From: an uncultured Roseivirgaceae bacterium
GTDB lineage: Bacteria; Bacteroidota; Bacteroidia; Cytophagales; Cyclobacteriaceae
Assembly (NCBI GenBank): GCA_964589185.1
Contig: CAZPST010000001.1
Coordinates: forward strand, 1-34,630
DNA: 34,630 nucleotides
Reading direction: 5' to 3'
The stretch's first letter is position 1. Every line of letters begins with the position of its first letter. The translations under genes and the position numbers were made by a program. The notes beneath the pieces are model-generated. The model ran no database searches. It saw only the letters and a list, made by a program, of their open reading frames with translations, and was not told where the DNA came from. Below are positions 4,587 to 28,823 of this stretch, one piece after another.

Positions 4587-4590
4587 AGGT

Positions 4591-5520
4591 ATGCGGGCTG
4601 TCACGGCTGCCATACTACTGATCTTGCTGGTGATTTCATGTAAAGACGTGAAGTCACCGGCATCATTGGTGCGCTTACCGGATTTCCCATCGCAATTTGT
4701 TCAGCCCAGACACATAGATGTTTGGTTGCCTCCAAATTACCCCACCCAGCAGCAATACCCCGTACTCTATATGCACGATGGGCAAATGCTTTTTGACTCC
4801 ACCACCACATGGAACGGGCAGGAGTGGGGGGTAGATGAGGTTATGGAGCATTTGATTTCGTCGGGGCAAATACGACCGGCCATTGTGGTGGCCATTCATA
4901 ATATCGATTCAATCCGACATGCGAATTATTTTCCACAAAAACCATTTGAATCATTGGCCAAACAGACGCAAGATTCGCTTTACACGTTGGAGCGTTCTCC
5001 GGGGCGTGGTTTATTTGGTGCCAGTGTCGATTCTGACCAATACCTGAGATTCATTGTTGATGAACTCAAGCCATTCATTGATAAAGAATATGCTACCCTA
5101 CCTGACCCAGCGCACACGTTCATCATGGGGTCCAGCATGGGTGGACTGATTTCGATGTATGCCATTTCGGAGTATCCGGAGGTGTTTGGAGGTGCAGCAT
5201 GTCTGAGCACCCATTGGCCGGGCATTTTCACCATGGAGAACAATCCCATTCCAAAAGCATTTTACCAATATGTCTTCACCAATCTGCCTGATCCTGCTAC
5301 GCACAAGCTCTATTTTGACTTTGGAACAGCCACGCTTGATGCGCTCTACGAGCCACTGCAATTGAAAGTGGATTCTATTATTCAATCTCGCGGATACACC
5401 TCCGAGAATTGGATCACACAAAAATTTGAAGGCCATCCGCATGACGAAAAAGCGTGGAGAAGCCGATTGCACATTCCTTTGACATTTCTTCTAAACAAAC
5501 ACCCACATGAAATCAAATAG
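4591..5520 (+). CDS. Putative esterase-family alpha/beta hydrolase lipoprotein
   Basis: Lipoprotein signal with lipobox (LLVISC). Nucleophile elbow GSSMGG. PVLYMHDGQ and HxxD-containing C-terminus as in the esterase D/enterochelin-esterase-like family. Lies 4 nt after the upstream stop. Confidence 0.7.
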   Translation: MRAVTAAILLILLVISCKDVKSPASLVRLPDFPSQFVQPRHIDVWLPPNYPTQQQYPVLYMHDGQMLFDSTTTWNGQEWGVDEVMEHLISSGQIRPAIVVAIHNIDSIRHANYFPQKPFESLAKQTQDSLYTLERSPGRGLFGASVDSDQYLRFIVDELKPFIDKEYATLPDPAHTFIMGSSMGGLISMYAISEYPEVFGGAACLSTHWPGIFTMENNPIPKAFYQYVFTNLPDPATHKLYFDFGTATLDALYEPLQLKVDSIIQSRGYTSENWITQKFEGHPHDEKAWRSRLHIPLTFLLNKHPHEIK

Positions 5521-14757: not shown

Positions 14758-14908
14758 TTTCAGATTTGTAGCGGTTAGACAAGGTTATGGAGAATTGACT
14801 TCACTTGCCCCATTTATTGTGGTTTTTTGCCTAATTTGAAATACAAAGTCATACGCATGGTCTATTGGCTTGTAAGTGGTATTTTTCCGTTTTAAATTGA
14901 GCCTTACC

Positions 14909-15529
14909 GTGGCATTAGGAAGTAACCTCAAAAAACCAGTCAGAGAGAATAAACCCACAACCAAAGTGGTGGAAGCGCATGTGCGTCCTGTCCTACAGGC
15001 GCCCGATCTCGAATATACCCCTGATGTTGACGAAATAGATGAAGCGATAGAAGCCAGAGAGCTTATGTGTGTGTTTCGTGCCGGCACCACCGAATATGCT
15101 ATTCCCATTGCATTGGCAAAGGAAGTAGTGAAGATGAAGCGTTTAGCGCCCATTCCCCAGATGCCCAAACACATCATAGGATTGGCCAATGTGCGTGGCT
15201 CCATATACGGAGTGCTCGATCTACAGACTTTTTTTGGCAATGCATCAGAGGCAGCCGATCAGGGGGTATTTCTATTGGTATTGAATGACGACAAATACAA
15301 AATTTGTGTTTCCATTCCGAGTGTGCCGGATACGCTTTATGTGACCGAATCCATGAGAGAAACCAATGGTGCCACCCAGATCAAAACCATCAAGAAGAGA
15401 GAATTTGTACAGGGAATCATCAAAAAGAACGACCGGTTGATTATTCAGCTTAACATCAAAGAATTGATTGCCAGCCCAAGTTTTGTAAATGAGAAAGAAC
15501 AATCGGCCAATGGCCAAAAAGGACACTAA
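14909..15529 (+). CDS. cheW: CheW-like coupling protein with ~50-aa N-terminal extension (CheW-1)
   Basis: CheW domain ([22 protein letters not shown]...[17 protein letters not shown]...[22 protein letters not shown]). The GTG at 14909 is chosen because it yields M-ALGSNLKK, matching the N-terminus MALGRNLKK of the second CheW at 18812. The exact start is uncertain: the ORF opens at 14876. Confidence 0.75.
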
Positions 15530-15531
15530 TT

Positions 15532-18069
15532 ATGCTTAATAATTTCACCATCCGCAGAAAAATGATGTTGTTCATCTTGGGTGTGACTATCGTGATTTAC
15601 ATAGTTACCCTGGGATACATCAGTTTCAACCTTCGCCAAAATGCAATACAAGAGGCTAAAAATCTGGCTGACGCCTACGCCAGGCAAAAGGCATCTGAGA
15701 TTAAGGCAGTGCTCAATGAAGATATGGCCGTATCTCGTATGATGTCCATGGCCGTGACAGAATATACCGGATTACCCAAGGTGCTGCGCGATAGCCTTCG
15801 AAGAAAATTGCTGGTAAACGTACTAAAAGCATATCCTAAATATGATGCTACTTGGATGAGTTGGGAACTTACGGCTATTGATCCGAAGTGGGATAAAACA
15901 CACGGGCGCGAGCGTACGAATTTCTACATGCGCAATGGACAAGTACAGTCTTCTCAAGAACTAGCCAACCTGGAAGCGGATAATACGAGCGGAATCTACG
16001 TTGAGATGAAGCGAAGAGGATATGTGAAGGATGGTCACGAATTATTGTCTGAGCCCTATTGGTATGAAGATTATGACTACTCTACGGCTTCTGGAGATTC
16101 GCTGTTGGGAGTATCGCCCACAGCTTCTCATTTTCACAAAGGCAAGTTTGCAGGGGTGATAGGCACAGACATGACAGTGAAGTACTTTCAAGATATGTCT
16201 GAGGTGTCTTATAAGCGTGGATTTGCTTTTTTGGTTACAAATCAGGGAACCATCATTGCTCACAAAGACCTTGGCATGTTCAGCAAGCCCATTGATAGTA
16301 TGAGCATGATGAAGGGGCTTGATTTTGATTTGAAATCAGGAATAAAGAAAGGTGAAGTGACTCCATTTGTTACCTATGATGCCAGTTTTGGGGAGGATGT
16401 CTATGTCACGTTTGCGCCTATCAAGGCAGGGCGAACTGATACACCTTGGTCAGCCGGTATCATTGTGCCTGTGTCTGAAATCACCGAGACGTTCGACGGT
16501 ATATTTAAATGGACATTGATGGGGGGAGCCGCCGGATTGATCTTCCTGACGTTCGTAATTGCTCGATTGGCCAATGGCATCACCAATTCACTCGATCGCT
16601 CCAATGCTTTATTGAAGGAATTGGCAAAGGGTAATTTGGATACCTCCAAAAAACTCAGAGTAGAAGGGATAGATGAGCTTAGTCAAATCGCGCATTCGGT
16701 CAATACATTGATGGATGAGTTGAATAAAAAGGCGGAATTTTCCAGAAAAATAGGTGAGGGAAACTTGGTGGCAGATTTCCACAGCTCGGGTGAAAATGAC
16801 GTCTTGGGCGAATCACTCCTGCGCATGCGGGATAACCTGCGCGTGGTAATTGAAGAAACTAAAGAAGCTGTGCAGCAAGCCGGATTTGAAGGAAATCTCT
16901 CTGCACGAATGGATCCTGAAGGTAAAATGGGCGCATGGAAAGACCTTACAGACTCGATGAATAGTCTCTTGGCCTCCATTAGTACACCATTCAATTCCCT
17001 CAATACACTAGTAGATGCCATGGCCGAAGGAGATCTCACGGTACGGTATCGTGAAGACGCTAAAGGGGACATTTTGCAAATGGCCAATAACCTGAACAAA
17101 GCATTGGACAACCTCAATGAACTCTTGGGCGGAATTGTCACAAATGCTAACATCATAGGCGATTCGTCAATGGAAATGCTGGCTGCCAGTGAAGAGATGA
17201 ATACAAATACGGGTGAGATTGCATCAGCGATAGCACAAATGAGTAGTGGTGCGCAAAATCAAGTGAGCAAAGTGGATGAATCGTCCAATCTGGTGGAGAG
17301 TATTTTACGTTCGGCCAATGACATGGGGCATCAGGCCGAAGAGATCAACTCTGCAGCGCAAAAAGGAGCGGAGAGCTCAGACAAAGGACTCAAGATGGTC
17401 AATAAAGTGGGCTTTAGTATGAAAGATATTAGAGCCTTTGCCAATGACACCAACGAGTCCATCAAAGTGCTCACTGAGCGATCCAAAGAGATCACACGCG
17501 TATTGGGTATCATCACAGATATAGCTTCTCAAACGAACCTACTCGCACTAAATGCAGCTATTGAAGCTGCGCAAGCCGGTGATGCAGGTCGTGGATTTGC
17601 GGTAGTAGCCGAAGAAATTCGCAAACTAGCAGAAGACTCGCGCACGTCAGCACGCGAAATCGAAAAGCTCGTGACGGATGTGCAAAACGATACCCAAACC
17701 GCAGCTAAGATGATCGAGGTGATGAGTGATAGTATTAAAGGGGGAGAAACAGCGTCCGTGGATGCATCTGAAGCATTTAAGGAGATTGCCGCATCATCTA
17801 TGCAAACGCTGCAACTCTCAGAGCAAATACTGAATGCGGCCAAAGGCCAAATGGAAAGCATCAAGAATGTGGTGAGCATCACCGAAGGTATCGTGGTGAT
17901 TGCAGAGCAAACAGCCGCCGGAACGGAGGAGGTTGCCAGTTCGGCTACCGAACTATCAGCCGGTATGGAAAACTACACTCAGCGCTCCGAACGAGTGACG
18001 GAAATTGCCACAGAATTGAAAGAACGAGTGGGTAAATTCAAACTGTCAGCAAAACGCGATAGCCAATGA
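15532..18069 (+). CDS. Methyl-accepting chemotaxis protein: TM - dCache-like periplasmic domain - TM - four HAMP units - MA signalling domain
   Basis: TM1 is aa ~12-32. A ~290-aa periplasmic region carries the Cache-like LSEPYWYED motif. TM2 is aa ~326-346. Four HAMP-like units each contain a G(N/D)L motif (AKGNLD, GEGNLV, FEGNLS, AEGDLT). Signalling hairpin is [39 protein letters not shown]. Candidate methylation site is [11 protein letters not shown]. Confidence 0.9.
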
Positions 18070-18812
18070 GTATAGTGGCCATCATCAACCAAAAGGGCGG
18101 TACCGGCAAAACGACCACTACGATTAACCTCGGCAGTGCCTTGGCGAAAAAGTGGAAGAAGGTAACGTTGGTAGACCTAGATCCGCAGGGAAATCTGAGC
18201 TATAGCTTGGGTATCAATGACTCGGAAGGTTCGATGGCCGATGTGTTGCTGGGCGACAAGCAATTAGCTGAAATCCTCATCGATCAGGAAGGTATGCGGG
18301 TGGCACCTGCCAATAATCAACTTGCCGATGCAGAACTGTCCCTAGCTGCGTCTGTCAACAGGGAGCATGTGCTTAAGGATGTGCTCAAGGGACAAAAAGA
18401 CCAAGATTTCGTTCTCATCGATTGTCCGCCTTCGCTTTCGGTACTTACGCTGAATGCCCTGCTGGCCGCTGACCAAGTGATCATACCGATGCAAATGGAG
18501 GTGTTAAGTCTTCAGGGACTAGACCAAATAGTGAATACAATAAATCGTGTGAAGTCGGCTTTCAAAAAGAAACTGAAAATTGCGGGTATTTTGCCTGTCA
18601 TGGTTGACAATCGTAGGAAACTGAGCCAAGAAGTGCACGACTACATTGCAGACAATTATGCCATCCCAATTTTCAAAAGTCAGATACGTGCCAATGTAAA
18701 AGCATCAGAGGCACCCTCGTTTGGCAAGAGTGTCATTGCGTATCAACCACGCTCCGCCAGTGCGCAAGATTATCTTCTTTTCGCAGATGAATTTCTAACC
18801 ATGAATGACTGA
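18066..18812 (+). CDS. ParA/MinD-family ATPase embedded in the che operon (ParC/PpfA-like)
   Basis: Deviant Walker A with signature lysine ([12 protein letters not shown]). DLDPQGN. Walker B-like FVLIDCPPS. 248 aa with no HTH extension. ATGA overlap with the MCP stop. Confidence 0.85.
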
Positions 18813-19528
18813 TGGCACTAGGTAGAAATTTGAAAAAGCAATCGCTCATTCCTGATAAGGAAGATGAAAAGAAAGACACGCCCGTAGCTAAGCCGGTGAA
18901 AGTGGAAAAGAAGAAATTGATTGGCACTAAAGAAAAGTCAAAGCGAGAGCGAAAATCACCGTCATCCTTCACCGGAAGCCTGTTTCATTACATCACAGAG
19001 CAGACATTGGCGCATCGGTCAGCCGTGCGCGAAAAGTACCAATTGGAGATACAGGCACTTGCCGGCAAGTCGGTTCAGTTGATCGTATTTGATGCAGGGA
19101 GTGAGGAATTTGCCGTGGATATCTCATCTGTAAAAGAAGTGATCAGCACGCCCACGATCGCCAAAGTACCCGGCATGCCTACCTACTTCAAAGGCATGAT
19201 TAAGGTGCGAAAGAATACCGTGCTGGTGATGGATTTGGGTGAGAAATTGCGCATCTCTACAGCGGATGAATTTCCGTACACATTGCTTTTGCGCAGTACC
19301 AAGCAGCCGCTCGGCTTGCTCCTGAGAGAACTTCCCCGCACGTTCAAAGTAGACGGTGGGCGAATCACAGGATCGCTACAGGCATTGGAACGTACCTCAA
19401 GAGATGAAATATTTGTCAAGGGACTCGTCAGTTTGAATGAGAAATTGGTTTTCTACCTCGACATAGAGGAATTGGTAAACAGTGACAAGGCAGTAGTGGT
19501 ACCGGATCAATTGGCCAAAAACGAATGA
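18812..19528 (+). CDS. CheW-domain protein with ~90-aa Lys-rich N-terminal extension (ParP-like, CheW-2)
   Basis: C-terminal CheW domain (LIVFDAGSEEFAVDISSVKEVI...YFKGMIKVRKNTVLVMDL...VKGLVSLNEKLVFYLDIEELV). The N-terminus [10 protein letters not shown] is followed by a K/E-rich linker (EDEKKDTPVAKPVKVEKKKLIGTKEKSKRERK). TGATG overlap with the ParA-like gene. Confidence 0.8.
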   Translation: MALGRNLKKQSLIPDKEDEKKDTPVAKPVKVEKKKLIGTKEKSKRERKSPSSFTGSLFHYITEQTLAHRSAVREKYQLEIQALAGKSVQLIVFDAGSEEFAVDISSVKEVISTPTIAKVPGMPTYFKGMIKVRKNTVLVMDLGEKLRISTADEFPYTLLLRSTKQPLGLLLRELPRTFKVDGGRITGSLQALERTSRDEIFVKGLVSLNEKLVFYLDIEELVNSDKAVVVPDQLAKNE

Positions 19529-20562
19529 GCATGAGCAAAAGACGTCTCCAAATATTGGTCGTTGACGATTCTGCATTCATGCGGTTATTGCTCTCTGATT
19601 TGATCTCAGAGGATGATGACCTAGAGGTGGCTGGTTCAGCTACCAATGGCATGGAGGCAGCCGCCAAGGTGGCTGAGTTATCACCAGACGTAGTGCTGCT
19701 CGATCTCAATATGGGAGATTATGATGGGCTGTTTGCCGTGAAAAAAATCATGGCCGAAAAGCCTACACCCATTTTGATTTTGAGCTCAGTGGGCAACACA
19801 GACCTGAATCCCATCTTTGAAGCGTTGAAATTCGGAGCGGTGGACTATATGAACAAGCCCGATCGCAACAACTTCAAAATGCGGACGATGCATTCGGAAC
19901 TGATGAGCAAAATTAAAGCCGCCGCTCGTGCTAAGCCCCGCACACTCCCGGTTACATCTGCACCAAAAAAGGCACTCAGTCGCAAAAAGAAGTCAAATTA
20001 TGATTTACTGGTCATTGGAGCGTCTACAGGAGGGCCTTCAGCCATCGAACAAATCATCACTGACCTACCGGCAGATTTTAATTTACCGGTCATTGTATGC
20101 CAGCACATGCCTACACTTTTCATTACGCCATTTGTCAACAGACTCAATTCGCTCACTGAACTCAATGTGGTCACTGCAGCCAAGTCCATGACGCCAGTGG
20201 CCGGAACGATCATGGTGTGCCCCGGACATGCCAACACGGTGCTGCGCAAATCGGGGAGTCGGTTCGTTGTGGAATTTGACGAGACTGTCTATCGCGAATA
20301 CAACAATCCATCAATCAATGCATTGATGCGAAGTGTGGCCGAAACCTACGGTGAAAAAGCCATAGGTGTGATCCTTACGGGCATGGGCAAAGATGGCGTA
20401 GATGGATTGAAGGCCATTAAAGAAACCGGAGGATACACGATTGCTCAAGACAAGGAGAGTTGTATCATTTACGGCATGCCGAAGGTGGCCGTGGAGCAGG
20501 ATGCGGTGCGTATGTCGCTGGATATCAAAGAAATAGGGGACTATATTGTGAATAATCTCTGA
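19525..20562 (+). CDS. cheB: CheB protein-glutamate methylesterase (REC + methylesterase)
   Basis: REC domain (ILVVDDS...VVLLDLNM...NKP). Methylesterase triad contexts GASTGGP (Ser), CQHMP (His), TGMGKDG (Asp). Confidence 0.9.
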   Translation: MSMSKRRLQILVVDDSAFMRLLLSDLISEDDDLEVAGSATNGMEAAAKVAELSPDVVLLDLNMGDYDGLFAVKKIMAEKPTPILILSSVGNTDLNPIFEALKFGAVDYMNKPDRNNFKMRTMHSELMSKIKAAARAKPRTLPVTSAPKKALSRKKKSNYDLLVIGASTGGPSAIEQIITDLPADFNLPVIVCQHMPTLFITPFVNRLNSLTELNVVTAAKSMTPVAGTIMVCPGHANTVLRKSGSRFVVEFDETVYREYNNPSINALMRSVAETYGEKAIGVILTGMGKDGVDGLKAIKETGGYTIAQDKESCIIYGMPKVAVEQDAVRMSLDIKEIGDYIVNNL

Positions 20563-22259
20563 TGGATTCAAAAGAAGCCGAATATCGCCATCTGTTTCTC
20601 ATGGAAGCCCATGAGAACTACGAGAAGCTCAATAACCTGTTTATTGAGTTAGAAAGAGATCCGTCTAGTCGCAATGCCATCAATGGGATTTTCAGGATTG
20701 TGCACACGCTCAAGGGCAATGCCATGCTCATGGGGTTTGATAAAATTGCCAATCTCACACATACCATGGAGGATGTGTTTGGCGCTTTGAGTGAGAAGAA
20801 AATACTCTTGACAGCCGAACTAATAGAAATACTCTTCCGATGCAACGACAAGTTGGGCGAATTGATAAAATCAATCGAATCAGGAGACAAAGTGAGCTAT
20901 TTAGGCGTGCGCACCAAGCTCTCCGTTTATCTGAAAAATGCCTTGGAAGGGGAAGAAAGTCCTAAAGAAGAGCAGCCACAACCCGAATTTGAAGAAGTCA
21001 TCGTAGAGGAAGCTCCTGCAGAAGATACAGCCGGAATCAGTTTTTCGGATGCTGTGCAGATTCCTATTCGTAAAATGGACGATTTGCTTAATCTGGTAGG
21101 TGAATTAGTCATTGAGCGTGACAGACTGATTGCCGTGTATGGTGCAGAGGGCAAGAGCACATTGGAGTTTGAAGGTTTGAAGCGCATTTCATCCAATCTG
21201 CATTACAGCATAATGAACATTCGGATGGTGCAGATGGGCTTTATGTTCAATAAATTTCATCGAATCCTAAGAGATGCTGCAACCTCTGCAAAGAAGGAAG
21301 TGAAGCTAGTGCTGAAAGGCACAGAGGTCGAAATAGACCGCAATATTCTCAAAATCATCAGCGACTCACTCATTCATTTGGTACGAAACTCGGTAAGCCA
21401 CGGCATTGAGTCAGACGCAGATCGACAGCAGGCCAATAAGCCAAAGGAGGGAACTGTGACGTTGGAAGCCCGACATGAGAAGGACAATGTAGTGCTTACG
21501 GTAACGGATGATGGTCGTGGCATTGATACCCAGAAGATTCGTAAAAAGGTAGTAGAGAAAAAAATGGTGTCGGCAGAAGTAGCCGAAAAGCTGCGTGATC
21601 CGGAAATCATCCGCTACATCTTCGAGCCGGGCTTTTCCAGTGCAGATGCCGTGAGTGAGCTATCGGGAAGAGGCGTGGGAATGGATGTGGTGAAAAGAGC
21701 CGTGGAGTCAATAGGAGGGCAGGTTTTGGTAGATACGGTGCTCGGTCAAGGGACATCTATTCACTTGGTTTTACCATCATCATTGGCACTCAAAGGCGCG
21801 CTTTTGTTTGAAATCGATGAGCAGGAATATGCCATTGCATTGGCGTATATTCAATCCGTCATTTACCTCACCAAGAAGGATATTCACAAGATCAGCAATG
21901 GACTGATGATCAATCACCAAGACGAAACGATCTCCATCGTGTTCTTAAAGGATTTGTTAGAAACACACGACTTGTCTGCCGTGCATGAAGGTAATTTACT
22001 TCATACAGGATATAATAACACACCTGACGATGAGCAATTGAGCGTGATACTCACGACCCATTCCGGTCGCCAGCTGGGGTTAGTCGTGGATCGATTGCAG
22101 CGACAAAAGGAAGTGATTGAGAAAAAATTACCCAAACCACTCGATGGAAGTAAGCTCCTAAGTGGTACTACCATTTTAGGTTCGGGCAATGTGTGTCCTG
22201 TGGTGGATGTGGCATCCGTCATGGACACGCTGTACTTATCAGGCACCCAAGCCGACTGA
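20562..22259 (+). CDS. cheA: CheA histidine kinase (P1-linker-P3-P4-P5; no recognisable P2)
   Basis: Hpt with phospho-His context FRIVHTLKGNA (His48, nt 20703-20705). Acidic linker EGEESPKEEQPQPEFEEVIVEEAPAED. P3 is IPIRKMDDLLNLVGELVIERDRL. P4 N-box is LIHLVRNSVSHGIE, with G-boxes DDGRGID and GRGVGMDVV. C-terminal CheW-like P5. Confidence 0.9.
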   Translation: MDSKEAEYRHLFLMEAHENYEKLNNLFIELERDPSSRNAINGIFRIVHTLKGNAMLMGFDKIANLTHTMEDVFGALSEKKILLTAELIEILFRCNDKLGELIKSIESGDKVSYLGVRTKLSVYLKNALEGEESPKEEQPQPEFEEVIVEEAPAEDTAGISFSDAVQIPIRKMDDLLNLVGELVIERDRLIAVYGAEGKSTLEFEGLKRISSNLHYSIMNIRMVQMGFMFNKFHRILRDAATSAKKEVKLVLKGTEVEIDRNILKIISDSLIHLVRNSVSHGIESDADRQQANKPKEGTVTLEARHEKDNVVLTVTDDGRGIDTQKIRKKVVEKKMVSAEVAEKLRDPEIIRYIFEPGFSSADAVSELSGRGVGMDVVKRAVESIGGQVLVDTVLGQGTSIHLVLPSSLALKGALLFEIDEQEYAIALAYIQSVIYLTKKDIHKISNGLMINHQDETISIVFLKDLLETHDLSAVHEGNLLHTGYNNTPDDEQLSVILTTHSGRQLGLVVDRLQRQKEVIEKKLPKPLDGSKLLSGTTILGSGNVCPVVDVASVMDTLYLSGTQAD

Positions 22260-22262
22260 CCT

Positions 22263-23102
22263 ATGGCGTCCATGGCACCCGATATGATCAGTGATGAAGA
22301 GCTTGCAGCACTCATGCAGGCTATAAACAATCGTTACGGGTTGGATTTCACTAACTATGAGCGCACGTCATTGAAGCGGGGCATAGTCCGGCTGATGATG
22401 AAGCATAAGATGGACACCATCATTGAGTTGTGGTCCAAAGTACTCAAAGATCAAGAGTTCTTTCTGAGTGCCATTGACGATCTGCTCGTAAACCTTACAG
22501 AGCTCTTCCGTAATCCTGACGTATGGATCAAGCTGCGCGATCAAATACTGCCTGATTTTAGAGGGAAAGGTCTGAAAATCTGGCATGCCGGGTGCTCCAC
22601 AGGAGAGGAGGTATACACCATGGCCATTGTACTTGAGGTCACGGGATTGCTGCCAAATGCCCGCTTGACCGCCACAGACCTCAGTTCTACGGCACTGCGA
22701 AAAGCTGTAAAAGGACATTATCCACTGGAGGTATTGAAGCAGTACCTCGTGCCTTTTTTGAAATTTTTCCCCAATCGCAGGCTTGAAGATTACTTTGATT
22801 ATTTCGACAAGCATGCCTTGATCAAATCAAAATACCAGAACAACGTACTTTTCAAAAAGCACAACTTGGTGACTGATCCGATGTATGACAAATTCGATAT
22901 CGTTTTTTGTCGAAATGTGATGATTTACTTTGACGATAAACTAAAGAAACGGGTGCTGGATATGCTCTACAATGGCCTCAAAGAAGGGGGCTATTTGATA
23001 ATAGGATATTATGACATTATGCCGGATTATGGCAAAACATTGTTCGATCTGTATGATGTAAAAACCCGGATTTATAAGAAAAAAGTGAGTGTTAATACCT
23101 AA
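22263..23102 (+). CDS. cheR: CheR protein-glutamate O-methyltransferase
   Basis: N-terminal CheR helical domain (NRYGLDFTNYERTSLKRGI). SAM-binding motif IWHAGCSTGEEVYTMA. FCRNVMIYFD. Confidence 0.9.
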   Translation: MASMAPDMISDEELAALMQAINNRYGLDFTNYERTSLKRGIVRLMMKHKMDTIIELWSKVLKDQEFFLSAIDDLLVNLTELFRNPDVWIKLRDQILPDFRGKGLKIWHAGCSTGEEVYTMAIVLEVTGLLPNARLTATDLSSTALRKAVKGHYPLEVLKQYLVPFLKFFPNRRLEDYFDYFDKHALIKSKYQNNVLFKKHNLVTDPMYDKFDIVFCRNVMIYFDDKLKKRVLDMLYNGLKEGGYLIIGYYDIMPDYGKTLFDLYDVKTRIYKKKVSVNT

Positions 23103-23115
23103 AAAGGAAAGCTAT

Positions 23116-23475
23116 ATGCGCATACTAATAGTTGATGATTCGAGCTATATCAGATCTAGATTGAAGGTGACATTGGAAAATAGCGGTTTTACTGTGATAG
23201 GAATGGCCGAAAATGGAGAGCAGGCCATTGACATGGCCATGGATTTAGGACCCGATATTATTACATTGGATAATATCCTGCCGGACATGACAGGTGTAGA
23301 CGTGCTGAAGGCGCTTAAAGATCACGAAGGTCTTACCAAAATCATCATGATAAGTGCCGTAGGACAGCAATCAGCCATCGCCGAAGGATTAGCCAATGGG
23401 GCAAGTGAGTACATCGTGAAGCCCTTTCAGGACGAAGAATTATTGCAAATCATCAAAAATATCAGCAAAGACTAG
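23116..23475 (+). CDS. cheY: CheY-like single-domain response regulator (CheY-1)
   Basis: ATG at 23116 (MRILIVDDSS). Phospho-acceptor context ITLDNILPDMTG. Ser/Thr (ISAVG). CheY-type aromatic switch and Lys (SEYIVKPF). Confidence 0.85.
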   Translation: MRILIVDDSSYIRSRLKVTLENSGFTVIGMAENGEQAIDMAMDLGPDIITLDNILPDMTGVDVLKALKDHEGLTKIIMISAVGQQSAIAEGLANGASEYIVKPFQDEELLQIIKNISKD

Positions 23476-23555
23476 TGACGATTAAGTAGAAACCCTTAGA
23501 AGATTATCGTCATGGTTGGCTATCTTGTATCTTATTAATCACCAACATAATCCGT

Positions 23556-24152
23556 ATGATCTCCAGCTTAAATGAAAACGAAATGAAGGTGGCCAGCAAA
23601 TTGATATTTGATGGTCTTTCTATGGCTAAATCGTCCATGGAGCAAATCCTGCAAAGCCCAATTACTATCCAAAAAATAGATTATAATGATGAAGCTGGCA
23701 TCCATCGCTTTTATGATGGCGGAGAAGGGGATGTGCACCTCATTAAAACTGAATTAATGGGGGAATTAAAGGGCGTCAGTCATTTGATTTTTTCGGCTGA
23801 TGAAGTGGCAAAATTGTACAAAGCGTGCTTGCCCGATCACGTTACTTTTGATGATTCTAATGAGAGTGCCTTGATGAAATTGGGCTTTCTCACAGAGATA
23901 GACAACATGGTGGCAGGAGCGGTCATTACAGAGTTTTCTAATTTCCTTGGCGTAGAGATATATGGTATGGTACCTTCGCTCACAGTAATGCATGCCAATG
24001 AAGTGAATGCCTATTTAGATGCTGAATCCACCGATATGGATTCTGTGATCCATTTCAAAGCTGTTTTTCACGGCAAAGAATTGGATATTTCCCCTGATTT
24101 CGTCTGGGTCTTCCATGATAAATTTGTGGACAAAATCAAGGGACTAGTATAG
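23556..24152 (+). CDS. CheC-family (CheC/FliY/CheX superfamily) CheY-P phosphatase-like protein with one intact and one degenerate site
   Basis: The second half carries a full E-x2-N-x22-P motif (E114-I-D-N117 ... P140 in LTEIDNMVAGAVITEFSNFLGVEIYGMVP). The first half keeps the spacing (E9-x2-V12-x22-P35) but Asn is replaced by Val. The 198-aa size fits CheC. Confidence 0.6.
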   Translation: MISSLNENEMKVASKLIFDGLSMAKSSMEQILQSPITIQKIDYNDEAGIHRFYDGGEGDVHLIKTELMGELKGVSHLIFSADEVAKLYKACLPDHVTFDDSNESALMKLGFLTEIDNMVAGAVITEFSNFLGVEIYGMVPSLTVMHANEVNAYLDAESTDMDSVIHFKAVFHGKELDISPDFVWVFHDKFVDKIKGLV

Positions 24153-24193
24153 TACGATATTGAATTGAAAGAAACTTAACTGAGAATATAATT

Positions 24194-24556
24194 ATGAGTA
24201 AGAGTGTGTTGATTGTGGACGATTCCATCTACATGAGATCATTGATAAAGTCGGCTCTTACGGGTGCCGGCTATAATGTGGTAGGTGAAGCGCAAAATGG
24301 TGAACAGGCGATAGATCTGGCAATAGAATTACAGCCCGACCTAATCACCCTTGACAATATTTTGCCCGATATGATGGGGTTTGAGATTCTTAAAGTCCTA
24401 AAAGATGAAGGCGTAGAATCTAAAGTCATTATGGTAAGTGCCGTAGGGCAGCAGACAGTGGTCAATAAGGGACTGTCGTTAGGAGCCTCAGAGTACATTG
24501 TGAAACCTTTTACAGAGGAAGATTTGGTTTCTGTAGTAAATAGGGTAATTTCCTGA
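24194..24556 (+). CDS. cheY: CheY-like single-domain response regulator (CheY-2), close paralogue of CheY-1
   Basis: VLIVDDS; ITLDNILPDMMG; VSAVGQQ; GASEYIVKPF. It shares long identical stretches with CheY-1 (NGEQAID, ITLDNILPDM, SAVGQQ, GASEYIVKPF). Confidence 0.85.
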   Translation: MSKSVLIVDDSIYMRSLIKSALTGAGYNVVGEAQNGEQAIDLAIELQPDLITLDNILPDMMGFEILKVLKDEGVESKVIMVSAVGQQTVVNKGLSLGASEYIVKPFTEEDLVSVVNRVIS

Positions 24557-24578: not shown

Positions 24579-27185
24579 ATGATCAAAAAATTATACAACC
24601 TGCCGATCCGACAGAAGTTTGCGGTTATTATTTTACCGCTTATTCTTATCGTCTTGGTGTTTGATTATCTTCAAATCAAGCATCATTACGTGGATTTTAA
24701 TGATTCTAAGCGTCTGAATAAGGCCATCACAGTAGGAATTGAAATCAACCATGTAGTACACGAACTTCAGAAAGAACGCAGTATTTCAACAGGTTTTCTT
24801 TCCAATCAAGGAGCCACTTTCAGCGATGAGTTAAACGAACAGCGATCCAAGACAGATAGTACGCTGAATCAATACTATACCGAGATAAGTAGCAAAGCGC
24901 TCAAAGATTTAGTAGGCATTCATCAAGAAGATATTGATCAGTTAAATACCTGGTTTGATAAACTCAAAGTGCTTCGAGCCAATATTGATGCGCACGACAT
25001 CACGTCCGAACTGTCTATCGAGAGCTATTCAGATATCAATAACATGGCACTTAATACTGTCATTCGATTGATTGATGAAACCCGAGACAAGCAAGTGGCA
25101 CAGCAAGTGCACGCTATCATCTATTTTCTGAAAGCCAAAGAGAATGCGAGTATCGAACGAGCCATTGGCACCCAAGCCTTTTCCTTAAGTCATTTGGATT
25201 TTGGGCTATACAACAGATTCACCAGGCTTGTAGCCAATCAAAACTCGTTTTTTGAAGCGTTTCAAATTATTGCGGATGAGGAATCAAATGAGCAATATTC
25301 CACCATCTTGTCAGGTGATGCCGTCTCTGAAGTGAAGCGGATGCGGACGGTTTTGTTTCAAAATGATTCATTAAGTGAAAATGCCGCACATTGGTACGAT
25401 GTGAGCACGGAGCAAATAAATCTTCTTAAAAAACTTGAAGACGCAATGTCTGATCGGATACAATCTCGTACAGAAGATATTGCGATCAGTTCCATGCAAA
25501 AATTCTGGTCATTCTTGGTCTTGGATATTTTGATTGGCATTCTCACATTCTGGTTGATGACCACACTAGCGACCAACTTGCTCAAGAACGTCAAAATACT
25601 TGATGATTTTACAAAGAAAATTTCATCCGGTGATCTCACGCAGAAAGTAGTCATTGACTCGCGGGACGAATTAGGCCAGTATGCCAAAACGTTCAATCAG
25701 ATGGTGTTGGAGATTCGCAAGTCGCACTATGCGTTGCGCCAGCAGCGTGACAAAGCAAAATTTCTTTACGAGAACATCTATCGCGTCTCCATGGTTGTGT
25801 TCGAAAATATCCAGCAGGGTATCTTCTTGTTGGACAAAGAATTTAAAATCTCAAAGTTTCACTCGCGAGCGATGAAGGGCATCTTTGCCAATGACCGCAT
25901 TGCCGGTGAGAATTTCGCCAACTTCATGCGTCCACTCATTTTGCCACGCGAGTTAGAGGCACTTGAGATGTTTATGCGGCACTTGTTCAATGAGGACATG
26001 GATGAGGACGTGGTGAATCAGTTGAATCCGATTGATCAAGTGAAAATCCACACCGAACAAAACGGCGTGGTGGCCACCAAGTACATCCGCGTGGATTTCA
26101 CACGCGTGTATCGTCAGGATAAAATCCAGCATGTAATGGTGACCGTGTCTGACGAGACTGAATCTATCCTATTGCAGCAGCATCTGGATGAAGCAGAGAA
26201 GAAGAAGCAGCAAGAAACCGAGCGTGTACTCAGCATCCTCAAAATCGACCCATCCATTTTGCGTGGTTTCCTTCACAATTCGCGAAAAATGCTGAAGAGT
26301 ATTTCGCAGCGATATGAGCAGCACGACAAAGGTGATTTCGATGAATTGCTCAGTTTTACCATGGACATTATTCATAACCTAAAAGGAAATGCGGTAGTGA
26401 TAGGCATGGATTTGATGTCGAATAAATTCCATGAAATTGAGGAGACCATCACCCAATTGAAATCGCGTCAACTTCGTGGAAAGGACTTTTTGGCTGTGTT
26501 GTATGAAATAGATGAGGCCGATCGAATGATTGCCGATATTTCAGAAATGCTCTACAAGATTGTCAGCATTTACAAGAAATTTCCTGCTGAGGGTCATTCC
26601 GTATCCAATATAATGGTGGTGGACGCACTTGAACGTGGGGCAGAGCTCATCAGCAAAGAGGTAGGGAAAAATGTGGAGGTCAACTTCAAAAACGATAAGA
26701 ACCTCTCGATACCTGAAAAATACGTGGAGCCATTCAAGGATGTCATGATCCAACTCATTCGAAATTCGATCATTCACGGGATCGAAACGCCAAGTGCACG
26801 AATCACGGCCGGTAAGGTGATCAAAGGTGAAATTGGTATTGAATTGGACAAAACAGCTTCCGATGATTTGGTGATTCGCTACCACGATGATGGAGCCGGT
26901 TTGGATTTGCAAGAGATCAAAGTAAAAGCATTAGATAGGGGTATTGTGATGGGCTTTGAGCTAGAGAAGATGTCGGATCAAGAGCTGGTAGAATTGATTT
27001 TCTTGGAAGGATTCTCTACATCTGAAAAATCAAATAAGCATGCCGGTCGTGGACAAGGGATGCACCTCGTGAAATCAATTGTAGCAGACCATGGTGGCAC
27101 ATACGCATTGACCTACGAAAAAGGAAAGTCATTTGGTATTACCATTACATTCCCAAGTACAGGTGAAAAGCTGGAGCAAGAATGA
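24579..27185 (+). CDS. Membrane sensor kinase: TM - NIT (nitrate/nitrite-sensing-type) domain - TM - HAMP - PAS-like region - Hpt - CheA-type HATPase; no P3 or P5
   Basis: TM1 is aa ~13-30. The NIT-type periplasmic helical domain (aa ~45-295) has the hallmark HELQKERSISTGFLS plus ENASIERAIG. TM2 is aa ~309-331. HAMP is aa ~332-385 (SSGDLTQKVVIDSRDELGQYAKTFNQM). PAS-like region is aa ~395-530. Hpt is aa ~555-650 with CheA-P1-like IIHNLKGNA (His599, nt 26373-26375). The catalytic domain is co-linear with the CheA in this window (MIQLIRNSIIHGIE; HDDGAGLD; GRGQGMHLVKSIVADHGG). Confidence 0.8.
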   Translation: MIKKLYNLPIRQKFAVIILPLILIVLVFDYLQIKHHYVDFNDSKRLNKAITVGIEINHVVHELQKERSISTGFLSNQGATFSDELNEQRSKTDSTLNQYYTEISSKALKDLVGIHQEDIDQLNTWFDKLKVLRANIDAHDITSELSIESYSDINNMALNTVIRLIDETRDKQVAQQVHAIIYFLKAKENASIERAIGTQAFSLSHLDFGLYNRFTRLVANQNSFFEAFQIIADEESNEQYSTILSGDAVSEVKRMRTVLFQNDSLSENAAHWYDVSTEQINLLKKLEDAMSDRIQSRTEDIAISSMQKFWSFLVLDILIGILTFWLMTTLATNLLKNVKILDDFTKKISSGDLTQKVVIDSRDELGQYAKTFNQMVLEIRKSHYALRQQRDKAKFLYENIYRVSMVVFENIQQGIFLLDKEFKISKFHSRAMKGIFANDRIAGENFANFMRPLILPRELEALEMFMRHLFNEDMDEDVVNQLNPIDQVKIHTEQNGVVATKYIRVDFTRVYRQDKIQHVMVTVSDETESILLQQHLDEAEKKKQQETERVLSILKIDPSILRGFLHNSRKMLKSISQRYEQHDKGDFDELLSFTMDIIHNLKGNAVVIGMDLMSNKFHEIEETITQLKSRQLRGKDFLAVLYEIDEADRMIADISEMLYKIVSIYKKFPAEGHSVSNIMVVDALERGAELISKEVGKNVEVNFKNDKNLSIPEKYVEPFKDVMIQLIRNSIIHGIETPSARITAGKVIKGEIGIELDKTASDDLVIRYHDDGAGLDLQEIKVKALDRGIVMGFELEKMSDQELVELIFLEGFSTSEKSNKHAGRGQGMHLVKSIVADHGGTYALTYEKGKSFGITITFPSTGEKLEQE

Positions 27186-27556
27186 AAAAGCGCCTTCTCA
27201 TAGTAGATGACTCCTCTATCATGAGGAGAACCATAGAAAAGAATCTAGCCGAGTATGATTTAGAGATCATCGGTCAGGCATCAAATGGCAAAGAGGCATT
27301 GGAGATGGTGAAAAAGGAAATGCCCGATGTGATTACACTGGATATCACCATGCCTGAAATGAACGGTATAGAGTGTTTGGAAGGAATCATGAAAATTCAT
27401 CCTACGTGTAAGGTGATGATCATCACGGCACTCTCGGATAAGTTGACCGGTTTGATAGCCTTAGATAGGGGAGCTAGGGGTTTTTTGTACAAGCCTGTGA
27501 GTGCGGAGGATTTGGAGCGATCGTTCAATAAATTATTGAAGCGAAATGGAGAGTAG
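27182..27556 (+). CDS. cheY: CheY-like single-domain response regulator (CheY-3)
   Basis: LLIVDDSS; canonical ITLDITMPEMNG; ITALS; GFLYKPV. ATGA overlap with the kinase stop. Confidence 0.85.
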   Translation: MKKRLLIVDDSSIMRRTIEKNLAEYDLEIIGQASNGKEALEMVKKEMPDVITLDITMPEMNGIECLEGIMKIHPTCKVMIITALSDKLTGLIALDRGARGFLYKPVSAEDLERSFNKLLKRNGE

Positions 27557-28013
27557 AAAGGAGGAGTTCGAAGCTACATGCAATTTGTTCATCAATTCGG
27601 TGAATAATTATTTCAAGCATCTCACTGAGATTGATTCCAATATTAAGGTGCCATACCTCAAAGAATCTCAGGGATTGGTGCTCAAGGATTATACAGGCAT
27701 GATTGCCATTTCTGGCAGCCGAAAGGGCTTTGTATATATCTCTGCCAATCGAGACATGTTTGGTGATTTGATCCACATGTTTATCGGCATTGAAGATCCG
27801 TCTGACGAGGATATTTTGGACATGGCCGGTGAAATATCCAATGTGGTGGCAGGTAATGTGCGTGCCAATTTGGGTGCGAATTTTATGATTTCCGTACCCA
27901 TTGTATTTGAAGGTATGCCTTCCGAATTGAAAATACCGGAAGATATTTCAATTTACGTGATACCGATCCAATGGAACAACCATGAGGCTTTTGTTGTATT
28001 AGGATTAGAATAG
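27546..28013 (+). CDS. cheX: CheX-like CheY-P phosphatase
   Basis: 155 aa with a single D-x3-E-x2-N site (D92-MAG-E96-IS-N99 in LDMAGEISNVVAGNV) followed by P118. Size and single-site layout fit CheX rather than CheC. 11-nt overlap with CheY-3. Confidence 0.65.
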   Translation: MESRKEEFEATCNLFINSVNNYFKHLTEIDSNIKVPYLKESQGLVLKDYTGMIAISGSRKGFVYISANRDMFGDLIHMFIGIEDPSDEDILDMAGEISNVVAGNVRANLGANFMISVPIVFEGMPSELKIPEDISIYVIPIQWNNHEAFVVLGLE

Positions 28014-28019
28014 GCGAAG

Positions 28020-28823
28020 ATGATAGAGCAGGGAAATTCCAGAAAGACAGATGCGAAGGCTAATTGGCTACTCAATCTTGATAAGATTGAGGATAAGACG
28101 CGTCGCAATTATTTCTCAGGCTTACCACAGGAGCACACATTGTTGGATTTCTTCACCTATGCTTTTGTGATCAATAAACCCAAAGGCCGTGTGGGGGGCG
28201 ATGGATTTTGGTTGCATGAAAACGGAGATGATGTCTATCTAGCCTTGTTCACCTGCGTGGGCGAGGGGCATTTGGCGCACATGATGATCCGCATTTATAT
28301 GAATGCGCTCAAGAAAATGGTTAATGAATACGCCATTGATTATCCCGGATCCATCCTGCAGTTTGTGCACAAAGAGGTTCAGTCTCGATTTAATAGCAAA
28401 AACAACATCCTATTGAATACCAATGCCAATATTGGTATTGTCAAACTCAATGCAATCACCAAATCGATGGAATTTGCTGGAGCTAATATGAATTTGATTC
28501 AAGTGGCGCGTGATGGTGTGCGCATTATCGAAGGAGAGAAATATCAGGTAGGAGATACAGGTAAAGAGAAGCCAACATACAGTTCCAATTCGCTAAGCGA
28601 TACAGATACTTCGTCGTTCTATTTGTGCAGTTCTGGCATTTTTAATCTTATTGGAGGGTCTGCGTTCAAGAAGTTGTCGCAGAACGAGCTCACAGATCAT
28701 CTCAAGGCTATTCAGAGGTATCCTGTATCAAGCCAAAAAGAGCATGTAGAGGAGTTCATGGCCGATTGGACAGGATCAAACAGGCAGAATGATGACATTC
28801 TGGTGATTGGTTTTACGCCTTGA
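28020..28823 (+). CDS. SpoIIE/RsbU-type PP2C-like domain protein, stand-alone, with a partly degenerate metal-binding set
   Basis: SpoIIE-family landmarks are present: KGRVGGDGFWL (GGDxY-type, D61) and C-terminal NDDILVIGF (D258/D259). The expected D-x-x-G-x-G Asp reads FTCVGEGH (T78). The expected (T/S)DG Asp reads CSSGIF (S205). Confidence 0.6.
   Translation: MIEQGNSRKTDAKANWLLNLDKIEDKTRRNYFSGLPQEHTLLDFFTYAFVINKPKGRVGGDGFWLHENGDDVYLALFTCVGEGHLAHMMIRIYMNALKKMVNEYAIDYPGSILQFVHKEVQSRFNSKNNILLNTNANIGIVKLNAITKSMEFAGANMNLIQVARDGVRIIEGEKYQVGDTGKEKPTYSSNSLSDTDTSSFYLCSSGIFNLIGGSAFKKLSQNELTDHLKAIQRYPVSSQKEHVEEFMADWTGSNRQNDDILVIGFTP

What the first reader, a model, noticed from the sequence alone, without database searches (positions are those of the whole stretch)
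24579..27185. Receptor-fused CheA-type kinase: NIT sensor - HAMP - PAS-like - Hpt - CheA-class ATPase domain with no P3 dimerisation or P5 CheW-like domain
Seen: one 868-aa ORF has two TM segments bracketing a ~250-aa helical periplasmic domain with the NIT hallmark HELQKERSISTGFLS. This is followed by a HAMP, a ~135-aa PAS-like region and an Hpt whose phospho-His context (IIHNLKGNA) mirrors CheA P1 in this window (IVHTLKGNA). The ATP-binding domain is co-linear with the neighbouring CheA P4 (LIRNSIIHGIE vs LVRNSVSHGIE; GRGQGMHLV vs GRGVGMDVV). There is no IRV..LD.L.NLVGELV-type P3 segment, no C-terminal CheW-like domain and no DHp H-box. Established: NIT domains are predicted nitrate/nitrite-responsive sensors. 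CheA kinases normally receive input only through MCP/CheW contacts via P5 and dimerise through P3. Inference: here the sensor is fused directly to a CheA-class catalytic core, bypassing the MCP/CheW array, and dimerisation would presumably come from the TM/HAMP coiled coil. It is flanked on both sides by CheY genes, one of them overlapping, which are its likely substrates. The architecture is uncommon and, as far as I know, not functionally characterised.
Basis: partly seen in the sequence, partly recalled or inferred. Interest (0 to 1): 0.8.

Follow-up and report, generated by a model that had tools for sequence, protein, structure and literature searches.

The report
Sensor-fused CheA-like kinase, class III
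This gene encodes a membrane sensor kinase that joins a nitrate-type sensor directly to the phosphotransfer and ATP-binding domains of the chemotaxis kinase CheA. It is real and unusual-looking, but it belongs to a widespread family already described by comparative genomics as "class III histidine kinases".

Summary
The 868-aa ORF (24579-27185, +) has this order: TM1, NIT, TM2, HAMP, PAS fold, linker helix, CheA-P1-type Hpt (His599), 8-residue loop, CheA-P4-type ATP-binding domain. No P2, P3, P5 or DHp/H-box was found by Pfam, PDB profile search, hhalign or AlphaFold2.

The claim that it is uncommon and undescribed is not supported. The ~460-aa cytoplasmic module (PAS-Hpt-P4) recurs behind many different sensors: NIT, PilJ, MASE6, Amt, Reg_prop/Y_Y_Y and GAF. 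A search found 967 clusters (50% identity) at E<1e-30.

The module sits in a conserved gene unit: kinase, single-domain CheY, CheX. This matches the class III histidine kinases (HKIII) of Adebali et al. 2017. I could confirm that paper only by citation and from memory.

The cognate regulator is the overlapping downstream CheY. It is 62-70% identical to HKIII-linked regulators elsewhere and only 32-33% identical to the two upstream CheYs, which belong to a separate complete che operon.

In Cytophagales the unit carries a PP2C phosphatase (71/74 genomes) and follows a che operon (56/61).

Verdict: a new member of a known kind. Its biochemistry has not been studied, as far as I know. Moderate interest.

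The parts
24579..27185 (+). Class III (HKIII-type) sensor histidine kinase, 868 aa
   Evidence: ORF. Domains. 322 close homologues of ~870 aa in Cytophagales.
24621..24677 (+). TM1 (residues 15-33)
   Evidence: Hydropathy peak 2.57.
24753..25463 (+). Periplasmic NIT domain (residues 59-295)
   Evidence: Pfam NIT 2e-49. NasR 4akk 8e-13, with R67 and R194 aligned to the NasR ER arginines. All-helical in AF2.
25512..25568 (+). TM2 (residues 312-330)
   Evidence: Hydropathy peak 2.16. Continuous helix 269-349 in AF2.
25611..25718 (+). HAMP (Pfam-matched part, residues 345-380)
   Evidence: Pfam HAMP 1.2e-6, 29.2 bits against cutoff 25.
25785..26156 (+). PAS-fold domain (residues 403-526), first part of the conserved HKIII module
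   Evidence: AF2 pLDDT 86.5, topology N-cap helix, b-b-a-a-a-a-b-b-b. Foldseek to the FixL, DosP, WalK and LOV PAS domains. G414, S429, N483/P484, F507, R509 and D525 are conserved family-wide.
26157..26243 (+). Linker helix after the PAS domain (residues 527-555)
   Evidence: AF2 helix 527-555. H535 is not conserved in the wider family, so this is not an H-box.
26250..26576 (+). CheA-P1-type Hpt four-helix bundle (residues 558-666). Phospho-acceptor His599 is the codon at 26373-26375 (CAT).
   Evidence: Family profile against CheA P1 structures, 1e-10. hhalign 96.7% to CheA P1. H599/K602/G603/H618/E621 spacing identical to CheA H48/K51/G52/H67/E70. Invariant in 60 orthologues and >=90% conserved across NIT and PilJ types.
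26577..26600 (+). Short loop (residues 667-674) joining Hpt helix D directly to P4, in the position where CheA has P2 and P3
   Evidence: AF2 low-pLDDT segment 668-677 between helices 634-666 and 675-695. Length is variable in the family. No P3 match.
26601..27161 (+). CheA-P4-type ATP-binding domain (residues 675-861)
   Evidence: PDB phmmer 1i58 1.8e-25, top 10 hits all CheA. Foldseek TM 0.87, rmsd 2.0 A. N box LIRNSIIHGIE, G1 DDGAG, F FLEGFS, G2 GRGQGM.
27182..27556 (+). Cognate single-domain CheY-like response regulator (124 aa), overlapping the kinase stop codon by 4 nt
   Evidence: Pfam Response_reg 1.5e-27. Present downstream in 74/74 orthologous loci and in all NIT/PilJ-type loci examined. 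62-70% identical to those regulators, 32-33% to the upstream CheYs.
27546..28013 (+). CheX phosphatase for CheY~P (155 aa)
   Evidence: Pfam CheX 1.6e-19. 74/74 orthologous loci. Present in every NIT/PilJ-type locus examined.
28020..28823 (+). Stand-alone PP2C/SpoIIE-type Ser/Thr phosphatase (267 aa), lineage-specific fourth gene and probable output
   Evidence: NCBIfam SiaA PP2C region 1.7e-28. The orthologue in Marinoscillum and a PilJ-type locus carry Pfam SpoIIE. 71/74 orthologous loci.
14876..24556 (+). Adjacent complete che operon. Context only, not part of the HKIII core. Gene order: CheW, dCache-MCP, ParA-like ATPase, CheW, CheB, CheA (P1-P3-P4-P5), CheR, CheY, CheC-like, CheY.
   Evidence: Pfam and NCBIfam. 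Same order in Marinoscillum. CheA lies upstream of the kinase in 56/61 loci. Absent from the PilJ-type and Reichenbachiella loci.

Best explanation
The gene encodes a class III histidine kinase (HKIII). This is a transmembrane sensor in which a periplasmic NIT domain signals through TM2 and HAMP to a conserved cytoplasmic module of PAS, linker helix, CheA-type Hpt (P1) and CheA-type ATP-binding domain (P4).

**Proposed mechanism (inferred).** P4 binds ATP and phosphorylates His599 on the Hpt bundle, which is tethered to P4 by only ~8 residues. This probably happens within one chain. The PAS domain and linker helix gate access of His599 to the active site in response to the sensor.

**Downstream steps (inferred from gene content).** The phosphoryl group passes to the CheY-like regulator encoded by the overlapping downstream gene. 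CheX removes it, giving a fast-resetting signal. In this Cytophagales lineage the unit also carries a stand-alone PP2C phosphatase, which is the most likely target or effector of CheY~P. It may work as a SiaA/SiaC-like Ser/Thr partner switch.

**Relation to the che operon.** The unit sits at the end of a complete che operon and may share signalling with it, but it is an autonomous system in other genomes.

**Shown here:** the domain identities, the absence of P3, P5 and DHp, the family spread, the conserved gene order and the regulator lineage.

**Inferred only:** cis-phosphorylation, PAS gating, the ligand (nitrate, nitrite or a similar oxyanion) and the PP2C output.
For: - Domains.
- The module is conserved as one unit behind many sensors and always ends the protein.
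- Some members are fused to trimeric Amt transporters and some appear soluble. This argues that the core does not need a dedicated dimerisation domain.
- All ATP-binding motifs and the CheA P1 His/Lys/His/Glu network are conserved.
- Kinase, CheY, CheX gene order in 74/74 orthologous loci and in 8/8 NIT/PilJ loci from Bacteroidota and Proteobacteria.
- The downstream CheY belongs to the HKIII-linked regulator lineage.
- PP2C is present in 71/74 loci. In Reichenbachiella a SiaC-family protein occupies the fourth position instead.
- Published class: Adebali et al. 2017. The title is in a reference list and a paraphrase agrees with my recollection of the abstract: sensory domains, no dimerisation domain, single-domain regulator plus CheX.
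Against: - No biochemical data exist for this protein.
- The HKIII paper could not be read, so the class definition rests on memory and one secondary paraphrase.
- The AF2 full-length model has pTM 0.40, so relative domain positions, including the distance from His599 to the ATP site, are unknown.
- The N-box His of CheA is Gln725 here and family-wide. The effect on catalysis is unknown.
- Reg_prop-type members have no adjacent regulator, so the CheY-CheX pairing is not universal.
- The PP2C has no partner (STAS, SiaC or a kinase) in the window.
- Tight linkage to a che operon in 56/61 genomes leaves open that the kinase also feeds the che CheYs.
Confidence: 0.78

Rival explanations
1. It is an auxiliary kinase of the adjacent chemosensory pathway. 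It injects a direct periplasmic signal into the same CheY pool as CheA, so the upstream CheYs (23089 and 24194) are also substrates. The whole 14-gene cluster would then be one system.
For: The genes are contiguous on one strand with gaps of 80 nt or less. A che operon lies upstream of the kinase in 56/61 Cytophagales genomes and in the same order in Marinoscillum. From memory, Adebali et al. describe HKIII systems as often using chemotaxis components.
Against: The kinase-CheY-CheX unit occurs without any che genes nearby in PilJ-type and Reichenbachiella loci. The upstream CheYs are only 32-33% identical to the HKIII-linked regulator lineage. Five of 61 orthologous loci lack the upstream CheA. 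The kinase has no P5 to dock on an array.
Confidence: 0.3
2. It is a decayed CheA paralogue. The fusion to a sensor is incidental and the kinase core is catalytically dead or acts only as a phosphatase or phosphate sink.
For: The single-sequence Pfam Hpt score is below threshold. The N-box His of CheA is replaced by Gln.
Against: H599, K602, H618, E621 and the N, G1, F and G2 boxes are invariant in 60 orthologues spanning 55-87% identity. They are conserved at 90% or more across NIT and PilJ types at ~25% identity. The module is maintained in hundreds of clusters with intact length. This pattern indicates purifying selection on an active enzyme.
Confidence: 0.05
3. It is a classical (class I) histidine kinase with a cryptic DHp. 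The helix after the PAS domain (527-555), or the Hpt helices, would form a dimeric four-helix bundle carrying the real phospho-His.
For: Foldseek aligns the whole cytoplasmic part with PAS-DHp-CA kinases such as WalK, YF1 and VicK. H535 is nearly invariant among close orthologues.
Against: H535 is replaced by K, R, Q or E in the wider family. There is no HisKA, HisKA_2/3 or H-kinase_dim hit. The helical region matches CheA P1 over all four helices. The ATPase domain is specifically of CheA type: the top ten PDB hits are CheA and the best classical kinase scores only E=0.07.
Confidence: 0.04

Closest known systems
Class III histidine kinases (HKIII), Adebali, Petukh, Reznik, Tishkov, Upadhyay and Zhulin, J Bacteriol 2017;199:e00218-17
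   Same: A sensor domain joined to a CheA-type Hpt and CheA-type ATP-binding domain. No dimerisation domain and no CheW domain. Encoded next to a single-domain response regulator and CheX. Found with or without che genes. The class features come from my memory of the abstract. One search confirms that the class occurs with and without che genes. The other features were tested here.
   Different: This member has a NIT-HAMP sensor and comes from Cytophagales (Bacteroidota). It carries a PP2C phosphatase as a conserved fourth gene and is appended to a full che operon. I could not check whether the paper covers this subfamily, the PAS domain or the PP2C/SiaC link. The paper's proposed role in modulating type IV pili was not tested here.
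CheA (class II histidine kinase; T. maritima 1b3q, 1i58, 1tqg; E. coli CheA)
   Same: The P1-type Hpt has the same His/Lys/His/Glu network. The P4 fold matches (TM 0.87). The substrate is a CheY-type regulator reset by a CheC/CheX-family phosphatase.
   Different: No P2, P3 or P5. It has its own transmembrane sensor, HAMP and PAS domains. P1 joins P4 through about 8 residues instead of P2, long linkers and P3. The N-box His is Gln. All CheAs surveyed by Berry et al. 2023 have P1, P3, P4 and P5 and no sensor domain (PMC10782961).
Classical PAS-DHp-CA sensor kinases (WalK, VicK 4i5s, YF1 4gcz) and the monomeric kinase EL346 (4r3a)
   Same: The overall logic is sensor, then PAS, then a helical phospho-acceptor element, then a GHKL ATPase. 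Foldseek aligns them over 470-590 columns. EL346 shows that a histidine kinase can work without dimerising (established knowledge).
   Different: The phospho-acceptor is a monomeric Hpt bundle homologous to CheA P1, not a DHp. The ATPase is of CheA class.
NasR (NIT-ANTAR, 4akk) and NIT- or PilJ-domain nitrate sensors (NarX/NarQ, McpN)
   Same: The NIT domain matches at 8e-13. Q-x-x-R (Q64-R67) and the second 'ER' arginine (R194) align with the NasR motifs (motif described in PMC8199190).
   Different: The output is a CheA-type kinase core rather than ANTAR, DHp or an MCP. The Gly of the second NasR G-x-x-R motif is Ser191 here. The ligand has not been tested.
SiaABCD Ser/Thr partner switch of P. 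aeruginosa (PMC7647112)
   Same: The fourth gene matches the PP2C region of SiaA (1.7e-28). A SiaC-family protein replaces it in a Reichenbachiella HKIII locus.
   Different: No SiaB kinase, SiaC or SiaD cyclase lies in this window. The PP2C is a bare 267-aa domain. The link to CheY~P is inferred.

Membership tests
HKIII (class III histidine kinase) | CheA-class ATP-binding (P4-like) domain | tested here: met
   Top 10 PDB sequence hits are all CheA P4 (1.8e-25). Foldseek TM 0.87. NCBIfam CheA models hit only residues 680-861.
HKIII (class III histidine kinase) | Hpt (CheA P1-like) phospho-acceptor immediately N-terminal to the ATPase | tested here: met
   Family profile against CheA P1 structures, 1e-10. 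hhalign 96.7%. H599/K602/H618/E621 network.
HKIII (class III histidine kinase) | No dimerisation domain (H-kinase_dim or DHp) and no CheW domain | tested here: met
   No Pfam hit at E<=1. None in 91 family members scanned. hhalign and the PDB profile find P1 only. AF2 shows an 8-residue loop between Hpt and P4.
HKIII (class III histidine kinase) | Own sensory input domain(s) | tested here: met
   NIT, two TM segments, HAMP and PAS.
HKIII (class III histidine kinase) | Encoded with a single-domain response regulator and CheX | tested here: met
   Window genes 27182-27556 and 27546-28013. 74/74 orthologous loci. All NIT/PilJ loci examined.
HKIII (class III histidine kinase) | Genome also encodes type IV pilus genes (pilT co-occurrence, per Adebali et al.) | not tested
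paraphrases the co-occurrence claim.
CheA (class II histidine kinase) | P3 dimerisation domain (H-kinase_dim) | tested here: not met
   The neighbouring CheA scores 9e-9 for H-kinase_dim in the same scan.
CheA (class II histidine kinase) | P5 / CheW-like domain | tested here: not met
   The protein ends 7 residues after P4. The neighbouring CheA scores 1.1e-18 for CheW.
CheA (class II histidine kinase) | No sensor domain; input comes only through chemoreceptors | tested here: not met
   NIT, HAMP and PAS are present. Definition from PMC10782961.
Classical (class I) histidine kinase | DHp/HisKA helix hairpin with a conserved H-box | tested here: not met
   No HisKA-family hit. The only His in the linker helix (H535) is not conserved family-wide.
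NIT domain sensors | Match to the NIT profile and the NasR fold, with both conserved arginines | tested here: met
   Pfam 2e-49 over 238/239 profile positions. NasR 8e-13 with R67 and R194 aligned.
NIT domain sensors | Binds nitrate or nitrite | not testable with these tools
   Needs ligand-binding assays. The Gly of one NasR G-x-x-R motif is Ser191 here.

The most novel reading that the evidence does not exclude
The HKIII core (PAS, Hpt, P4) may be a third mechanistic type of histidine kinase. It would autophosphorylate within a single chain, with the PAS domain gating access of a tethered Hpt to the ATP site, independent of oligomeric state. Fusions to trimeric Amt transporters and soluble forms support that independence. 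In Cytophagales this kinase would link three signalling paradigms in one operon: a His-Asp relay with CheX reset, a PP2C/SiaC-type Ser/Thr partner switch, and a complete MCP-CheA pathway. No structure or enzymology of such a core exists, to my knowledge.
Probability: 0.3. Interest if true: 0.6.

Novelty: new member of a known kind. Interest (0 to 1): 0.35.

Why it matters
The protein shows how the CheA catalytic pair (P1 and P4) can work outside a chemoreceptor array, under direct control of a membrane sensor. The class has been described only by comparative genomics, as far as I know, so three questions remain open:

- how it autophosphorylates without a dimerisation domain
- what the conserved PAS domain does
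- what CheY~P acts on

The Cytophagales subfamily offers a compact test system of kinase, CheY, CheX and PP2C with a plausible ligand. There is also a practical annotation point: many members are mislabelled 'chemotaxis protein CheA' or only 'NIT domain-containing protein', which inflates or hides chemotaxis gene counts.

Tried and rejected
1. **Vestigial P3.** phmmer alignments to 1b3q and 4xiv ran back to residue 642, opposite P3 helix 2. I rejected this. The family profile and hhalign assign 634-666 to Hpt helix D, and nothing matches P3.
2. **Cryptic H-box at H535.** Rejected because H535 is not conserved outside close orthologues.
3. **Amt-fused relatives the same as Ks-Amt5.** Rejected. 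Ks-Amt5 is a HisKA/DHp kinase (PMC5764959).
4. **Profile search with alignment A3.** It returned only 48 hits, mostly NIT types, so it said little about spread.
5. **The search for related loci with the diverse PAS-Hpt alignment A5.** It failed because no stretch was conserved enough. The single genome scan was then spent on close orthologues, so the taxonomic spread of the wider family rests on the names returned.
6. **Reading Adebali et al. 2017.** The paper is not held under its PMC id or DOI. Several citing papers turned out to cite other Adebali works.
7. **Sigma-70 promoter and terminator scan of the cluster.** It was not above chance and does not suit Bacteroidota.
8. **Literature searches** for a CheX/SiaC/PP2C link and for the D. 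nodosus system found nothing directly relevant.
Full report
**Observation.** The ORF at 24579-27185 (+) encodes 868 aa.
- Hydropathy gives two TM segments, residues 15-33 and 312-330.
- Pfam finds NIT (59-295, 2e-49), HAMP (345-380, above cutoff), Hpt (560-646, 19.8 bits, below the 24.6 cutoff) and HATPase_c (721-860). It finds no H-kinase_dim, CheW or HisKA.
- The neighbouring CheA (20562-22259) scores for Hpt, H-kinase_dim, HATPase_c and CheW in the same scan.
- Against solved structures, the ten best sequence hits are all CheA P4 or P3-P4-P5 chains (1i58, 1.8e-25). The NIT region matches NasR.
- NCBIfam CheA models match only residues 680-861.

**Structure prediction.** A full-length AF2 model (pLDDT 78, pTM 0.40) gives this layout:
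- a helical periplasmic domain
- a continuous helix through TM2 into HAMP
- a low-confidence linker (385-402)
- an alpha/beta domain (403-526) and a long helix (527-555)
- four helices (558-581, 587-608 carrying His599, 611-628, 634-666)
- a short low-confidence loop (668-677), then the ATPase domain

Foldseek places the ATPase domain on T. maritima CheA P4 (TM 0.87, rmsd 2.0 A). A separate model of residues 390-560 (pLDDT 86.5) has PAS topology. Its best matches are the FixL, DosP, WalK, FlrB and LOV PAS domains (prob 1.00).

**The Hpt is of CheA P1 type, and there is no P3.** A 20-sequence family profile covering PAS, Hpt and linker hits CheA P1 structures (T. maritima 1tqg 1e-10; Salmonella 1i5n 6e-8; R. 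sphaeroides CheA3 P1 3kyi 3e-6). The match covers all four helices. Nothing else is hit apart from designed coiled coils. hhalign of the same profile against a five-CheA alignment returns a single hit, P1, at 96.7%.

H599, K602, G603, H618 and E621 have the same spacing as H48, K51, G52, H67 and E70 in the window's own CheA. From established knowledge, those positions match the E. coli CheA P1 active-site network. These residues are invariant in 60 orthologues and at least 90% conserved across NIT and PilJ types at about 25% identity.

An early hint of a vestigial P3 came from phmmer alignments reaching residue 642. This is explained by Hpt helix D occupying the position just before P4. The linker-helix His535 is not conserved family-wide, so there is no cryptic H-box.

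The P4 N, G1, F and G2 boxes are present. The first His of the CheA N box is Gln725, a family-wide difference.

**How common is it?** An exhaustive HMMER search with residues 385-868 found 967 clusters (50% identity) at E<1e-30. All 150 best representatives match residues ~405-860 in essentially one stretch that ends at their C-terminus. Their lengths range from about 500 to 1691 aa.

Pfam scans of 91 of these show HATPase_c in all and Hpt in 81. None has CheW or H-kinase_dim. Their N-terminal sensors vary: PilJ (25), NIT, MASE6, ammonium transporter, Reg_prop/Y_Y_Y beta-propellers (20), GAF, PAS and HAMP.

Named members come from Bacteroidota, Burkholderiaceae, Hahella, Pseudomonadales, other Gammaproteobacteria and Lentisphaeria. 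They are often annotated 'chemotaxis protein CheA'. The architecture is therefore not rare.

**Gene context.**
- In this window the kinase is followed by a CheY that overlaps it by 4 nt, then CheX, then a PP2C phosphatase (NCBIfam SiaA PP2C region, 1.7e-28).
- Kinase, CheY, CheX recurs in Marinoscillum, in two metagenomic PilJ-type loci, in Reichenbachiella, in Hahella, in a 4.6-Mb genome and in a Burkholderiaceae MAG.
- Most of these loci have no che genes nearby.
- The fourth gene varies: PP2C/SpoIIE, a SiaC-family protein plus an alginate-export porin, the porin alone, or nothing.
- A Reg_prop-type member is an orphan with no adjacent regulator.

Across 77 species-level Cytophagales genomes carrying the NIT-type orthologue (Ekhidna, Marinoscillum, Cyclobacteriaceae and 'Roseivirgaceae' MAGs), I counted neighbours by tblastn:

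| Neighbour | Present |
|---|---|
| Downstream CheY | 74/74 |
| CheX | 74/74 |
| PP2C | 71/74 |
| Full che operon (CheA) upstream | 56/61 |

The downstream CheY is 62-70% identical to HKIII-linked regulators of other Bacteroidota loci and 45-48% identical to proteobacterial ones. It is only 32-33% identical to the two upstream CheYs, which are 55% identical to each other. The cognate partner is therefore the downstream CheY. The upstream ones belong to the che operon.

**Identity.** These features match the class III histidine kinases (HKIII) defined by Adebali et al. 2017. They are sensory domains, CheA-derived Hpt and kinase domains, no dimerisation domain, a single-domain regulator plus CheX, and occurrence with or without che genes.

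The paper is not in the held library. Its title appears in a reference list. A citing paper paraphrases it as usually part of chemotaxis systems, also found in genomes lacking che genes, and co-occurring with a type IV pilus marker. The remaining class features are from my memory of the abstract.

Berry et al. 2023 define CheA as always having P1, P3, P4 and P5 and no sensor domain. The protein is therefore not a CheA.

**Mechanism.** Shown:
- an intact CheA-type P1 and P4 pair, joined by a short loop
- a fixed PAS domain upstream of that pair
- variable sensors
- a conserved CheY and CheX

Inferred:
- P4 phosphorylates His599, probably in cis.
- Fusions to trimeric Amt transporters and apparently soluble members argue that the core does not depend on a dimeric scaffold.
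- This member could still dimerise through its TM, HAMP and PAS helices.
- The phosphoryl group goes to the downstream CheY, and CheX resets it.
- The PP2C, which a SiaC-family protein replaces in Reichenbachiella, suggests an output through a Ser/Thr partner switch.

The ligand is unknown. Both NasR 'ER' arginines are kept (R67, R194), but the Gly of one NasR G-x-x-R motif is Ser191. A PilJ-type relative sits next to ANTAR and nitrate-transporter-like ABC genes, which supports nitrate sensing somewhere in the family.

**Verdict.** It is wrong on rarity and on prior description, and imprecise on the substrates.

This is a new member of a known kind: a NIT-HAMP subfamily in Cytophagales, with a PP2C, appended to a che operon. 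The class itself has no enzymology or structure that I know of, which keeps moderate interest.

Noticed in passing
window 14876-24556 (+): A complete che operon: CheW, dCache-MCP with two TM segments and a double HAMP, ParA/MinD-like ATPase, CheW, CheB, CheA, CheR, CheY, CheC-like, CheY. It lies in an Ekhidna-like Cytophagales genome. From my own knowledge this lineage glides rather than swims with flagella, so the output of this pathway is unclear. The ParA-like gene between the MCP and CheW recalls the ParC/PpfA array-positioning ATPases.
   Followed up: partly
window 23556-24152 (+): A 198-aa protein with only weak CheC/CheX similarity (Pfam CheC 0.0097, CheX 0.013; NCBIfam CheC_Thtogales 7.8e-6). 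It is conserved upstream of the kinase in 57/61 orthologous loci. It is probably a divergent CheC-type phosphatase of the che operon.
   Followed up: partly
window 28020-28823 (+): Pfam gives no SpoIIE/PP2C hit for this 267-aa protein at E<=1. NCBIfam matches the SiaA PP2C region at 1.7e-28, and the orthologue in Marinoscillum is Pfam SpoIIE. It is a bare PP2C domain with no partner gene in the window.
   Followed up: partly
L006:4441-7304 (Reichenbachiella sp., GCA_039978375.1): A NIT-type HKIII is followed by CheY, CheX, a SiaC-family phosphoprotein (Pfam 1.6e-28) and an alginate-export-type porin. This suggests HKIII output can run through a SiaC-type switch and exopolysaccharide export.
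   Followed up: partly
L009:1809-8978 (Burkholderiaceae MAG, GCA_004298905.1): A PilJ-type HKIII with CheY and CheX lies directly downstream of an ANTAR regulator and an NMT1_2, permease, ABC-ATPase set that resembles a nitrate/nitrite transporter. This is a contextual hint of nitrate sensing by PilJ-type members.
   Followed up: no
proteins P0147, P0179 and relatives: Some HKIII modules are fused to a full ammonium-transporter (Amt) domain (Pfam up to 1.6e-118) and are annotated only as 'ammonium transporter'. They differ from the characterised Ks-Amt5, which has a HisKA/DHp kinase.
   Followed up: partly
target residue Q725 (window 26751-26753); family-wide: The first His of the CheA N box (H..RN...HG.E) is invariant in five CheAs. 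It is Gln in the target and in at least 90% of 144 family members. This is a class-specific active-site difference of unknown consequence.
   Followed up: no
L084 (PBTY01000042.1, 'MAG: Rickettsiales bacterium isolate NP5'): A contig labelled Rickettsiales carries a 56%-identical NIT-type HKIII of the Cytophagales kind. The contig is probably mis-binned or the MAG mis-classified.
   Followed up: no
window 1386-7360 (+): A starch or maltodextrin utilisation cluster. It holds a 1066-aa GH13 alpha-amylase with CBM48 and a T9SS C-terminal sorting domain (Por_Secre_tail), an esterase and a cyclomaltodextrinase. This is consistent with a Bacteroidota origin.
   Followed up: no
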